Virus record (IMG/VR): IMGVR_UViG_3300045988_062118 | Coordinates: 1 to 37,536 of that record | Length of the DNA: 37,536 bases | Origin: a virus | Strand: one strand, 5' to 3' | In this document: one piece after another, positions 3,496 to 4,068 of the stretch | How the letters are laid out: every line of letters begins with the position of its first letter | Numbering within the stretch: position 1 is the first letter of the stretch | Made by a program: the position numbers and the translations under genes | The notes under the pieces: model-generated | What the model saw: only the letters and a program-made list of their open reading frames with translations | What the model was told of the DNA's origin: nothing | Databases searched by the model: none

Positions 3496-3525
3496 TAAAA
3501 AAAGACCATGGTAAAAACACGGTCT
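3496..3525 (-). terminator. Intrinsic terminator downstream of the DUF2829 gene
   Basis: Minus strand reads AGACCGTG-TTTTTAC-CATGGTCT followed by TTTTTTT. Confidence 0.65.
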
Positions 3526-3546
3526 GAATTATCTGCTATTCCGTTT

Positions 3547-4014
3547 CTACTCCACTATTACCCAGTCTTCAGCAAGACAATCGTTTATACTCGGCACCCA
3601 CATGGAGTGTGAACCATCAACACATCTGATCTGCAGATATGGGTTACACTTGAATAAGTCACCCTCGCTGATTCCCCAGGCTTCTGCGGTCTGCTTGTTA
3701 CATGGTATGCCATCAGGATATCCCTTCTGGAATACAACAAACATTCCTTTGCCATTCCAACCCTTTCTTGCAACTCTGAAGCCCTTCTTGAGCATTTCAA
3801 GAGCAATTCCAAACGTCATGTTGTCACATGGTCTGTATGCTTCGTTAAACTGCTTCTCCGGCGACCAGCTCTCATATCCATCTGAATATCTTACGAGATA
3901 GCCTTCATCTGCTGGATTTTCTTCCGCTGGAATCTGCCATCCTTTGTAATTGTTATAGTCGCCTCTTGTCATCGGTCTTGCCTCAATCTGTTTTGTTCCA
4001 ATGTACTTCTGCAT
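3547..4014 (-). CDS. DUF2829 (Tad2-like) domain protein with extra N-terminal domain
   Basis: 155 aa. The C-terminal ~90 aa ([29 protein letters not shown]...[12 protein letters not shown]) match the DUF2829 pattern as I remember it. AGGAGG RBS 8 nt upstream of the ATG. Confidence 0.7.
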   Translation of the reverse strand: [155 protein letters not shown]

Positions 4015-4039
4015 TCTTTCATCCTCCTATTTTTTGCAT

Positions 4040-4068
4040 AAAAAAACACCATACATCTCTGTACAGTG
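4040..4068 (-). terminator. Intrinsic terminator between the 68-aa ORF and the DUF2829 gene
   Basis: Minus strand reads CACTGTACA-GAGA-TGTATGGTG (9-bp stem including G-U pairs) followed by TTTTTTT. Confidence 0.65.

What the first reader, a model, noticed from the sequence alone, without database searches (positions are those of the whole stretch)
3496..4068. Terminator-bracketed DUF2829 (Tad2-like) gene inserted in the head operon
A 155-aa ORF sits between the MuF cassette and the scaffold gene, where SPP1-like head modules normally have nothing. Its C-terminal ~90 aa ([29 protein letters not shown]...[10 protein letters not shown]) match DUF2829. That is the family of Tad2, the phage sponge that sequesters the Thoeris gcADPR signal. 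It carries an additional ~65-aa N-terminal domain ([17 protein letters not shown]...[15 protein letters not shown]). The gene is flanked on both sides by clean intrinsic terminators (4040-4068 and 3496-3525), so it is an insulated moron-like cassette.
Basis: partly seen in the sequence, partly recalled or inferred. Interest (0 to 1): 0.7.

Follow-up and report, generated by a model that had tools for sequence, protein, structure and literature searches.

The report
Two-domain Tad2 sponge gene cassette
A gut Coprococcus phage carries, as a swappable cassette between two terminators in its head operon, a probable anti-immunity "sponge" of the known Tad2 family; this is ordinary, apart from an uncharacterised extra domain that also accompanies three other sponge families.

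Summary
A 155-aa gene (3547-4014, minus strand) lies between the MuF gene plus a 68-aa ORF and the scaffold gene. It is flanked by the only two hairpin-plus-7-T terminators on the coding strand of the structural region.

Residues 66-154 are a full-length Tad2-like domain (PF11195, E=4.8e-24). It is homologous to solved Tad2 sponges, and the core signal-pocket residues are kept (W86, N87, G88, W139, S142, D145).

Residues 1-65 form a separate, confidently predicted domain with no Pfam or PDB match. It is homologous to the N-terminal dimerising domain of the published sponge RyR Tad. It also occurs alone, and N-terminal to Tad2, Acb4 and Sequestin domains. Phage N4 gp49 has the same two-domain architecture.

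Among 69 related head modules the slot holds this gene (23), a DUF6275 gene (3) or no third gene (43; L049 inspected and empty). The conserved flanks include a 27-nt direct repeat. Sponge genes occupy this slot in Bacillus and Clostridium phages too, so "normally nothing there" is wrong. No promoter of its own was found.

Verdict: an untested new member of a known anti-defence family. The exact protein is already deposited as "DUF2829 domain-containing protein". The ligand and the N-domain's role are inferred, not shown.

The parts
3547..4014 (-). Coding sequence of the 155-aa two-domain protein (stop codon 3547-3549)
   Evidence: ORF; phrog_872, E=5.8e-55 over the full length; the exact sequence is NCBI MFR7641199.1, 'DUF2829 domain-containing protein [Coprococcus sp.]', seen on 546 contigs.
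3820..4014 (-). N-terminal accessory domain (residues 1-65), predicted fold beta-beta-alpha-beta-beta-alpha
   Evidence: No Pfam or PDB sequence match. AF2 pLDDT 95.9. No significant PDB fold match. Homologous to the RyR Tad gp68 N-domain (hhalign 97.5%, E=5.5e-12) and to the N-terminus of N4 gp49 (99.8%). Occurs alone and fused to four sponge families.
3550..3819 (-). Tad2-like (DUF2829, PF11195) sponge domain (residues 66-155)
   Evidence: E=4.8e-24. ModTad2 E~1e-19, HgmTad2/AcrIIA7, SPO1 Tad2, SptTad2; 24 significant Foldseek hits, all Tad2 structures; pocket residues W86, N87, G88, W139, S142 and D145 conserved.
4023..4028 (-). Ribosome-binding site AGGAGG, 8 nt upstream of the ATG; part of the conserved upstream flank of the cassette
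   Evidence: sequence; invariant across head-module backgrounds.
4040..4071 (-). Upstream intrinsic-terminator-like hairpin plus 7-T run, ending the MuF/68-aa-ORF unit
   Evidence: (dG -16.4, z -3.45). Other backgrounds have different stem sequences, but a hairpin plus T-run is always present except in L003.
3497..3525 (-). Downstream intrinsic-terminator-like hairpin plus 7-T run, travelling with the cassette
   Evidence: (dG -12.7, z -2.7). In related loci the stem changes (C-G to U.G, G.U to A-U) keep the pairing.
4026..4052 (.). Upstream copy of the 27-nt imperfect direct repeat bounding the 543-bp cassette
   Evidence: 23/27 identical to 3483-3509, spacing 543.
3483..3509 (.). Downstream copy of the 27-nt direct repeat
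4094..4300 (-). 68-aa ORF overlapping the MuF stop codon; it co-varies with the MuF C-terminus (immunity-like). Neighbour, not part of the cassette.
   Evidence: cluster C4 is always found with this MuF C-terminus type.
4297..5835 (-). MuF head-morphogenesis protein with a polymorphic C-terminal extension (contains HEFGH); upstream neighbour
   Evidence: PF04233, residues 144-268. (conserved core, at least 8 C-terminal types). (no Pfam match for the C-terminal part).
2695..3420 (-). Scaffold protein gene; downstream neighbour, preceded by a conserved leader
   Evidence: PF06810, E=1.2e-21. (the leader is almost invariant among the aligned loci; 1-3 substitutions).

Best explanation
The gene encodes a two-domain phage anti-defence sponge.

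Inferred from family membership: the C-terminal Tad2 domain assembles into a tetramer. Its inter-protomer pockets (W86, N87, G88, W139, S142, D145) bind and sequester an ADP-ribose-derived immune signal made by bacterial TIR proteins (Thoeris-type: 3'cADPR/gcADPR, His-ADPR or N7-cADPR). The defence effector is therefore never switched on.

Inferred from homology to the RyR Tad crystal structure: the N-terminal 65-residue domain is an accessory module that dimerises by strand swapping. It probably stabilises or cross-links the oligomer rather than acting on type I Thoeris signal itself.

Shown here: the gene is carried as a 543-bp promoter-less cassette (RBS + gene + terminator) in a hypervariable slot between the MuF toxin/immunity-like unit and the scaffold gene of a temperate Coprococcus siphophage. 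Conserved flanks, including a 27-nt direct repeat, let it be gained, lost or replaced by recombination.

Inferred: it is transcribed late, by read-through of the upstream terminator.
For: Domain identity:
- PF11195 over the full profile, E=4.8e-24.
- Homology to ModTad2 (E~1e-19), HgmTad2, SPO1 Tad2 and SptTad2.
- AF2 model with pLDDT 86.5; all 24 significant PDB fold matches are Tad2 structures, TM up to 0.77.

Pocket:
- SPO1 W25/N26/W73/D79/S76/D67/I63 and HgmTad2 W21/N22/G23/W87/S90/D93 map onto identical residues here.
- W86, N87, W139, S142 and D145 are conserved in 93-99% (G88 in 91%) of 206 family members (residue lists from 10.1101/2023.05.01.538930 and 10.1101/2023.11.15.567273).

N-domain:
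- Independent fold, pLDDT 95.9.
- Homologous to the RyR Tad gp68 N-domain (hhalign 97.5%, E=5.5e-12), which forms a domain-swapped dimer and has no anti-Thoeris-I activity when expressed alone (10.64898/2026.06.04.730250).
- The same architecture occurs in N4 gp49.

Cassette behaviour:
- Of 69 related head modules, 23 carry it (in three different MuF-C backgrounds), 3 carry DUF6275 instead, and 43 have no third gene. L049 was inspected and is an empty site in the same background as the filled L040.
- The flanks are conserved and include a 27-nt direct repeat.
- These are the only two strong terminators in the structural operon.
Against: - No binding or inhibition data exist for this protein or, as far as the searched literature shows, for any N-domain+Tad2 protein. 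The 2025 systematic screen tested only 87-98-aa Tad2s.
- Ligand specificity cannot be read from sequence. Pocket-lining positions that vary between homologs differ here (T65->C131, H71->S137, T78->N144). [quoted passage not shown]
- Oligomeric state could not be modelled with the tools available.
- The strongly conserved Y20-N21..R/K24-G25-W26..P29..E32 loop of this N-domain subfamily is absent from gp68, so gp68_N's inactivity and its purely structural role may not transfer.
- Two terminators upstream of the highly expressed scaffold and capsid genes are odd for a read-through model. No transcript data are available.
Confidence: 0.7

Rival explanations
1. The N-terminal domain is itself a second signal-binding (sponge) module. 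The protein would then be a dual sponge, like the published Acb4-Tad2, Tad2-Sequestin and Acb4-Sequestin fusions, and would neutralise a second immune signal.
For: - The domain occurs as a ~73-85-aa stand-alone phage protein, the typical size of a sponge, and it dimerises in RyR Tad.
- It is fused N-terminally to four independent sponge families: Tad2, Acb4 (CP51 gp007, complete PF13876), Sequestin (P0364, complete PF21825) and RyR Tad. One protein has the reversed domain order (P0127).
- A stand-alone copy overlaps a Sequestin gene (L006/L007).
- Fusion to known sponges is exactly how Sequestin was discovered (10.1101/2025.07.12.664507).
- Many invariant aromatic and charged residues (K8, Y20, W26, E32, Y43, Y47, W50, Y60) are compatible with a nucleotide pocket.
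Against: - gp68_N (1-86) alone had no activity against type I Thoeris, and gp68_C alone sufficed.
- Among the fused proteins examined here, 65 of 66 representatives carrying both domains have it N-terminal (one reversed, P0127), which fits an accessory or assembly role.
- No fold similarity to any nucleotide-binding protein; only weak Tudor/SH3-like resemblance.
Confidence: 0.25
2. The Tad2 domain here targets a non-Thoeris signal, such as Pycsar cUMP/cCMP or CBASS cyclic dinucleotides, as some Tad2 homologs do.
For: - MoTad2, the closest solved relative, also binds cUMP/cCMP in a second pocket (10.1101/2025.08.24.671296).
- HgmTad2 and SptTad2 bind cGG/cGAMP.
- The SPO1 F44 that occludes the second pocket is K107 here.
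Against: - The HgmTad2 cyclic-dinucleotide pocket residues (R31, L36, F70, N85) are replaced here by Q96, Y99, C123 and S137 (S47 falls in an alignment gap), and the insertion is shorter.
- The canonical ADPR-signal pocket is fully conserved, which argues that TIR signals remain at least one target.
Confidence: 0.15
3. It is an AcrIIA7-like anti-CRISPR that inhibits type II-A Cas9.
For: Sequence homology to AcrIIA7 entries 8kbi and 9kzr. Some phage records annotate two-domain homologs as 'anti-CRISPR protein'.
Against: Li et al. could not reproduce Cas9 inhibition by HgmTad2/AcrIIA7 or other Tad2 homologs, in vitro or in vivo. Yirmiya et al. argue the family is anti-Thoeris.
Confidence: 0.04
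4. It has a role in head assembly, or it is the immunity protein for the polymorphic MuF C-terminal toxin domain, as its position inside the head module might suggest.
For: It is located between MuF and the scaffold gene. MuF here has a variable C-terminal extension, and a related locus carries a CdiA_C toxin domain.
Against: - Head modules with 90-100% identical scaffold and MuF core lack it or carry DUF6275 instead.
- It occurs with three different MuF C-termini. The small overlapping ORF, not this gene, co-varies with the MuF C-terminus.
- Homologs sit in unrelated contexts: the N4 early/middle hotspot and between holin and endolysin.
Confidence: 0.03

Closest known systems
Tad2 of Bacillus phage SPO1 (Gp34.65; PDB 8SME/8SMF/8SMG)
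   Same: Same Pfam family and fold. The core pocket residues W25, N26, W73, S76, D79, D67 and I63 are conserved as W86, N87, W139, S142, D145, D133 and I129.
   Different: SPO1 Tad2 is a single 89-aa domain; this protein has an extra 65-aa N-terminal domain. Three pocket-lining residues differ (T65->C, H71->S, T78->N). The insertion after beta2 is longer, and F44 is replaced by K107.
ModTad2/MoTad2 (Myroides odoratus prophage; PDB 8V3E, 9EIB)
   Same: Best sequence match (E~1e-19) and best fold match among solved structures. Also prophage-encoded.
   Different: ModTad2 has a single domain. It binds His-ADPR (type II Thoeris) and cUMP/cCMP but does not inhibit type I Thoeris. Whether the window protein shares that specificity is unknown.
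HgmTad2 = AcrIIA7 (PDB 8KBI-8KBM) and SptTad2 (8WJD)
   Same: Homologous Tad2 domain with an identical gcADPR pocket core.
   Different: Their long insertion forms a cGG/cGAMP pocket whose residues are not conserved here. The reported anti-CRISPR activity is disputed.
Escherichia phage N4 gp49, the G7C-like phage homologs, and phrog_872
   Same: Same two-domain architecture, N-domain + Tad2-like.
   Different: About 44% identical. Encoded next to the virion RNA polymerase in the N4-like anti-signalling hotspot, not in a head operon. Also uncharacterised.
RyR Tad (gp68 of Pectobacterium phage vB_PatP_CB1)
   Same: Homologous N-terminal domain (hhalign 97.5%), placed in front of a sponge domain that binds gcADPR.
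   Different: The C-terminal sponge domain is RyR Repeat12-like and all-alpha, not Tad2. The protein is a dimer. Its N-domain lacks the conserved RGW..P..EN loop of the window's subfamily.
Sponge-sponge fusions (Acb4-Tad2 of phage Pm86, Tad2-Sequestin, Acb4-Sequestin of Ab09 gp59)
   Same: A small modular anti-signalling protein built from independently folding domains. The window's N-domain pairs with the same partner families.
   Different: In those fusions both halves are proven sponges. Here the N-terminal half has no demonstrated ligand.
Morons of temperate phages (Hendrix/Juhala concept, from my own knowledge)
   Same: An accessory gene inserted between conserved late genes, with a terminator, and with presence/absence polymorphism.
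   Different: No promoter of its own was detected. The slot works as a cassette-exchange site with conserved flanks.

Membership tests
Tad2 / DUF2829 (PF11195) sponge family | Pfam PF11195 match above the gathering threshold over the whole domain | tested here: met
   85.1 bits against a cutoff of 25; profile positions 1-73 of 73; residues 66-154.
Tad2 / DUF2829 (PF11195) sponge family | Sequence homology to experimentally validated, solved Tad2 proteins | tested here: met
   ModTad2 ~1e-19, HgmTad2 ~1e-16, SPO1 Tad2 ~1e-12, SptTad2 ~1e-10.
Tad2 / DUF2829 (PF11195) sponge family | Tad2 fold (N-terminal helix followed by an antiparallel sheet with helical insertions) | tested here: met
   (secondary-structure order H68-76, then strands and short helices); 24 PDB matches with E<=1e-3, all Tad2, TM up to 0.77.
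Tad2 / DUF2829 (PF11195) sponge family | Conserved ADPR-signal pocket residues (SPO1 W25, N26, W73, D79; HgmTad2 W21, N22, G23, W87, S90, D93) | tested here: met
   W86, N87, G88, W139, S142 and D145 are identical here. W86, N87, W139, S142 and D145 are conserved in 93-99% (G88 in 91%) of 206 homologs. Peripheral positions differ (C131, S137, N144).
Tad2 / DUF2829 (PF11195) sponge family | Homotetramer with pockets at protomer interfaces | not testable with these tools
   Only monomer prediction was available.
Tad2 / DUF2829 (PF11195) sponge family | Binds and sequesters a TIR-derived signal and relieves Thoeris defence | not testable with these tools
   Needs biochemistry and plaque assays. 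No two-domain Tad2 was found among the tested proteins in the supplement of the 2025 screen.
HgmTad2-type dual (cyclic dinucleotide + gcADPR) Tad2 subgroup | Long beta2-beta5 insertion carrying R31, L36, S47, F70 and N85, which bind cGG/cGAMP | tested here: not met
   the aligned residues are Q96, Y99, gap, C123 and S137, and the insertion is shorter.
Sponge-associated N-terminal domain (RyR Tad N-domain type; no Pfam entry) | Profile-level homology to the gp68 N-terminal domain | tested here: met
   (probability 97.5%, E=5.5e-12, 36% identity over 58 columns). (BLASTP 1e-7). (fold match to the Yersinia phage TG1 RyR protein, TM 0.88).
Sponge-associated N-terminal domain (RyR Tad N-domain type; no Pfam entry) | Also encoded as a single ORF | tested here: met
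   (for example P0299 at 78 aa and P0343 at 73 aa, both complete genes inside contigs).
Sponge-associated N-terminal domain (RyR Tad N-domain type; no Pfam entry) | Domain-swapped dimer through beta1 | not testable with these tools
   The monomer model places beta1 (residues 2-5) in cis. The swap is known only from the gp68 crystal structure.
Moron (autonomous accessory transcription unit in a late operon) | Present or absent between otherwise conserved neighbouring genes | tested here: met
   23 filled, 3 replaced by DUF6275, 43 without a third gene; L049 is empty against L040 filled in the same background.
Moron (autonomous accessory transcription unit in a late operon) | Its own terminator | tested here: met
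   the downstream hairpin travels with the gene into DUF4355-type head modules (L001, L003).
Moron (autonomous accessory transcription unit in a late operon) | Its own promoter | tested here: not met
   no sigma-70-like site lies between the upstream terminator and the ATG (25 nt). The only nearby 9/12 match (4115..4086) lies upstream of the terminator and is at chance level. Non-sigma-70 promoters are not covered by the scan.
AcrIIA7 anti-CRISPR | Homology to AcrIIA7 | tested here: met
   (8kbi at 2.3e-16; 9kzr at 1e-14).
AcrIIA7 anti-CRISPR | Inhibition of Cas9 | not testable with these tools
   The literature disputes the activity for the family.
MuF polymorphic-toxin immunity protein | Co-variation with the MuF C-terminal domain and a position immediately downstream of it | tested here: not met
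   the gene occurs with three different MuF C-termini and is absent from loci that have the window's MuF C-terminus. The small overlapping ORF co-varies instead.

The most novel reading that the evidence does not exclude
The 65-residue N-terminal domain is an unnamed, widespread phage family: 2322 database proteins and 167 cultured-phage records, including N4 gp49. It may be either a fifth signal-sequestering domain or a universal 'sponge-booster' dimerisation module. It is shared by four unrelated sponge families (Tad2, Acb4, Sequestin, RyR Tad) and is also made on its own. If it binds a signal of its own, proteins like this one are dual sponges, and the stand-alone versions are a new sponge family hiding in plain sight.
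Probability: 0.28. Interest if true: 0.7.

Novelty: new member of a known kind. Interest (0 to 1): 0.42.

Why it matters
The Tad2 assignment adds one more untested member to a family with thousands of members. The same protein is already deposited as a DUF2829 protein of Coprococcus prophages that are common in human gut metagenomes.

Three points are useful beyond that.

1. The two-domain form accounts for over 100 entries in the original list of about 650 Tad2 homologs and includes N4 gp49, yet I found no tested example in the searched papers and held supplements (one table was truncated).

2. The N-terminal domain links four sponge families and also exists alone. That makes a specific question testable: does it broaden the range of signals bound, or does it help the sponge assemble?

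3. In temperate Firmicutes siphophages, the junction between the head-morphogenesis gene and the scaffold gene, and also the lysis cassette, act as exchange sites for anti-signalling genes. This can guide searches for new anti-defence genes; the DUF6275 gene occupying the same slot is one candidate.

Tried and rejected
- N-domain as a degenerate duplicate of the Tad2 fold. Weak reciprocal phmmer cross-hits suggested this, but hhalign gave a probability of 0.3% and Foldseek only E=0.68 to SPO1 Tad2. Rejected.
- N-domain as Lockin. The Lockin N-termini given in the paper's primers (MKEKDLGITE, MTVEKTLT, MNMDKKEEK) and its hexameric all-beta fold do not match. Rejected.
- Pfam, NCBIfam and PDB sequence searches of the N-domain found nothing significant. 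Weak Tudor_5, LGFP and Ago_N_2 hits are below threshold.
- Megablast of the first 12 kb of the window against cultured phages gave no match.
- An Rfam scan of the whole window gave no family, so the hairpins and the conserved scaffold leader are not known RNA elements.
- The promoter search around the cassette found nothing above chance.
- An HgmTad2-type cyclic-dinucleotide pocket is not conserved.
- I first assumed N4 gp49 would be an Acb4 protein because of the Pfam name of PF13876. The scan shows it is N-domain + Tad2-like.
- A literature search for DUF6275 returned no papers.
- Model coordinates are not exposed to scripts, so conserved N-domain residues could not be mapped onto a surface and no oligomer could be modelled.
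- The list of experimentally tested Tad2 homologs in the 2023 supplement was truncated in storage. I therefore could not establish whether any early-tested homolog carried the N-domain.
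Full report
**1. What is in the sequence**

The ORF is real. An AGGAGG ribosome-binding site at 4023-4028 sits 8 nt before the ATG.

Gene order on the minus strand is as follows:
- large terminase, 8546-9952
- SPP1-type portal, 7058-8533
- two unknown ORFs
- MuF, 4297-5835 (PF04233)
- a 68-aa ORF overlapping the MuF stop codon, 4094-4300
- the gene in question
- scaffold, 2695-3420 (PF06810)
- major capsid, 1650-2669

The window as a whole is a complete temperate siphophage genome of about 37.5 kb and 42% G+C. 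It encodes an integrase, an HTH repressor, RecT/YqaJ recombination proteins, a C5 methylase, an antirepressor and a GH25 lysin.

The exact protein is deposited at NCBI as "DUF2829 domain-containing protein [Coprococcus sp.]". It was seen on 546 contigs, some of them chromosome-sized. The closest genomic relatives are in Lachnospiraceae.

**2. The terminators**

Two hairpin-plus-T-run sites lie on the coding strand:
- Upstream: 4071..4044 with a T-run reaching 4040; dG -16.4 kcal/mol, z = -3.45.
- Downstream: 3525..3503 with a T-run reaching 3497; dG -12.7 kcal/mol, z = -2.7.

The simple count of terminator-like sites in the region is not above chance. However, across the 19-kb structural region these are the only two minus-strand hairpins followed by seven uninterrupted T's.

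In related loci the downstream stem differs by one-sided changes that keep the pairing. The upstream position carries at least five unrelated stem sequences, each followed by the same T-run and RBS.

**3. The C-terminal domain**

Residues 66-154 match PF11195 (now named "Tad2-like") over the entire profile, with E=4.8e-24.

By sequence they are homologous to every solved Tad2:
- ModTad2, ~1e-19
- HgmTad2/AcrIIA7, ~1e-16
- SPO1 Gp34.65, ~1e-12
- SptTad2, ~1e-10

An AlphaFold2 model (pLDDT 86.5) finds 24 significant PDB neighbours. All of them are Tad2 structures, with TM up to 0.77.

I mapped the published ligand contacts onto this protein:
- SPO1 Tad2 W25, N26, I63, D67, W73, S76 and D79 correspond to W86, N87, I129, D133, W139, S142 and D145.
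- HgmTad2 W21, N22, G23, W87, S90 and D93 map to W86, N87, G88, W139, S142 and D145.
- W86, N87, W139, S142 and D145 are conserved in 93-99% of 206 family members, and G88 in 91%.
- Peripheral contacts differ: T65->C131, H71->S137, T78->N144.
- The residues that build HgmTad2's separate cyclic-dinucleotide pocket are not conserved.

Neither is met, so family membership stands at the level that sequence and fold can establish.

Which signal is bound cannot be inferred. Characterised Tad2 proteins bind 3'cADPR/2'cADPR, His-ADPR, N7-cADPR, cUMP/cCMP or cyclic dinucleotides.

**4. The N-terminal domain**

Residues 1-65 have no Pfam, NCBIfam or PDB sequence match.

They are not a degenerate Tad2 repeat; hhalign gives a probability of 0.3%.

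They fold with very high predicted confidence (pLDDT 95.9) into a beta-beta-alpha-beta-beta-alpha unit. That unit has no significant PDB neighbour, only weak Tudor/SH3-like resemblance.

A profile search finds 2322 proteins. They fall into these groups:
- many complete stand-alone genes of about 73-85 aa
- fusions to PF11195 (Tad2)
- fusions to PF13876 (Acb4)
- fusions to PF21825 (Sequestin)

One representative has the two domains in reversed order (P0127).

Among cultured phages, 167 records carry the domain. Examples:
- N4 gp49 has the same N-domain + Tad2 architecture.
- C. perfringens phage CP51 gp007 is N-domain plus a complete Acb4 domain.

**5. What the literature says about these partners**

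Tal et al. showed that Tad2, Acb4 and Sequestin are signal sponges that are frequently fused to one another. They discovered Sequestin through exactly such fusions (10.1101/2025.07.12.664507).

A June 2026 preprint describes RyR Tad, gp68 of Pectobacterium phage CB1 (10.64898/2026.06.04.730250). Its findings are:
- The C-terminal RyR-like domain binds gcADPR.
- That N-terminal domain forms a domain-swapped dimer in the crystal.
- Expressed alone, it shows no anti-type-I-Thoeris activity.

I fetched gp68 and compared it with the window protein. Its N-domain is homologous to the window's N-domain (hhalign 97.5%, E=5.5e-12; BLASTP 1e-7). A fold search had independently matched the Yersinia phage TG1 RyR protein that gp68 is annotated as resembling.

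So the window's extra domain is a module that accompanies four unrelated sponge families.

The only experimental evidence on it points to a dimerising accessory role. However, the window's subfamily has a strongly conserved Y-N-x-x-R/K-G-W-x-x-P-x-x-E loop that gp68 lacks. A ligand-binding role of its own is therefore not excluded.

In the papers I could search, two-domain Tad2 proteins are catalogued: more than 100 entries in the original ~650-homolog table carry the motif. They were not among the proteins tested in the 2025 systematic screen, which used Tad2s of 87-98 aa.

**6. The cassette and its slot**

I anchored on the scaffold protein and recovered 80 IMG/VR head modules. Of these, 69 retain both the MuF core and the scaffold gene.

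In these modules the MuF N-terminal ~290 residues and the scaffold are 68-100% identical (85-100% in 60 of the 69). The MuF C-terminus, in contrast, falls into at least eight unrelated types. Each type has its own small ORF overlapping the MuF stop codon, which is the pattern of a polymorphic toxin and its immunity gene. One related locus carries a CdiA_C domain.

Downstream of that pair is an optional third position:
- 23 loci carry the Tad2-like gene, in three different MuF-C backgrounds.
- 3 loci with the window's own MuF-C/68-aa pair carry a DUF6275 gene instead (PF19791).
- 43 loci carry no third gene.

L049 is an empty site in the same background as the filled L040, and it keeps both hairpins in tandem.

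Identity between backgrounds starts at the T-run followed by ATGCAnAAAATAGGAGGAT. It ends just after the downstream hairpin. The two boundaries share a 27-nt direct repeat (23/27, spacing 543 nt).

Two loci have the same N-domain joined to a Tad2 domain that is only 41% identical, which indicates recombination at the domain level.

An identical protein (P0008, 90% identical to the window protein) sits at the same junction in head modules with a different scaffold family and a different terminase.

The same junction holds other sponge genes elsewhere:
- a short DUF2829 gene in Bacillus phages of the phi4J1 group
- N-domain+Acb4 in CP51

A 75%-identical homolog instead lies between holin and endolysin. 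A stand-alone N-domain plus Sequestin pair occupies that position too.

The gene is therefore dispensable for head assembly. It is not the MuF immunity gene. It occupies a recurrent exchange site, not a place that is "normally empty".

**7. Expression**

Only 25 nt separate the upstream T-run from the ATG, and no promoter-like site belongs to the cassette.

The cassette therefore looks promoter-less and dependent on read-through of the upstream terminator during late transcription. This is an inference. The scan covers only sigma-70-type promoters, and there are no transcript data.

Late co-expression with capsid proteins would be sensible if, as reported for type I Thoeris, the capsid is the trigger (cited). 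That link is speculation.

**8. Verdict**

This is a real, well-delimited accessory cassette encoding a Tad2-family sponge with a second, uncharacterised domain associated with sponges.

The Tad2 reading is well supported at family level, but it is ordinary. The family has thousands of members, and this protein is already annotated as DUF2829.

The more interesting lead is the N-terminal module. I estimate:
- about 0.7 that the protein acts as a Tad2-type sponge with the N-domain as an assembly accessory
- about 0.25-0.3 that the N-domain binds a signal itself

Noticed in passing
window 4297-5835 and 4094-4300 (minus strand); L012-L091: MuF has a conserved ~290-aa core and a polymorphic C-terminal extension; the window's version contains an HEFGH motif and has no Pfam hit. 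At least 8 unrelated C-terminal types occur in related phages. Each type has its own small ORF overlapping the MuF stop codon, the pattern of a polymorphic toxin and immunity pair. L003 carries a CdiA_C domain.
   Followed up: partly
L015:3605-3874 (also L027 and L037): An 89-aa DUF6275 (PF19791) gene occupies exactly the same slot, between the same flanks, in place of the Tad2-like gene. No literature exists on this family, so it is a candidate anti-defence gene by position.
   Followed up: partly
L048:3425-3874 and L066:2711-3160: The same N-domain (98% and 83% identical) is joined to a Tad2 domain only 41% identical to the window's, giving a 149-aa protein. This suggests recombination at the domain boundary.
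   Followed up: partly
L049:3223-3465: An 'empty' slot retains both hairpin terminators in tandem, with the junction AAAATAG|TAGCTAATT. It looks like a precise loss of the coding part of the cassette.
   Followed up: yes
window 3421-3496 (minus strand): The leader between the downstream terminator and the scaffold start is almost invariant in the aligned related loci (1-3 substitutions) and folds somewhat better than shuffles (z = -2.1). It has no Rfam match and no obvious promoter.
   Followed up: partly
L006:5001-5454 and L007:712-1165: A stand-alone N-domain gene (78 aa) overlaps by 47 nt the start of a Sequestin (PF21825) gene, between the holin and lysin genes of a myovirus-like prophage. 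This may be a split or frameshifted version of the N-domain-Sequestin fusion.
   Followed up: partly
L175/L176:3501-3977: A 75%-identical two-domain homolog, seen on hundreds of contigs, sits between the holin and the amidase endolysin. The lysis cassette is a second recurrent site for these genes.
   Followed up: partly
P0127, P0129 and P0164: Architectural variants: reversed domain order (Tad2 domain first, then N-domain) in P0127, and tandem Tad2 domains in P0129 and P0164.
   Followed up: no
window 25352-26920 (+): A 522-aa protein with a C-terminal T5orf172/MUG113 (GIY-YIG-like) domain lies next to the integrase in the lysogeny module. It is a possible prophage-encoded defence or lysogenic-conversion gene.
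   Followed up: no
window 14874-16301 (-): A phage-encoded C-5 cytosine DNA methylase, probably a second anti-restriction counter-defence function in the same genome.
   Followed up: no
window 5883-6374 and 6391-7242 (-): Two ORFs of unknown function lie between portal and MuF. They are conserved in related loci (L002, L004, L005) and are not typical of SPP1-like head modules. One has a faint choice-of-anchor-D-like hit.
   Followed up: no
L173:1474-1956 (Escherichia phage N4 gp49): As annotated in EF056009, N4 gp49 is N-domain + Tad2-like (PF11195). It is not a PF13876 protein, despite that Pfam family's name ('N4 Gp49/Sf6 gene 66').
   Followed up: yes
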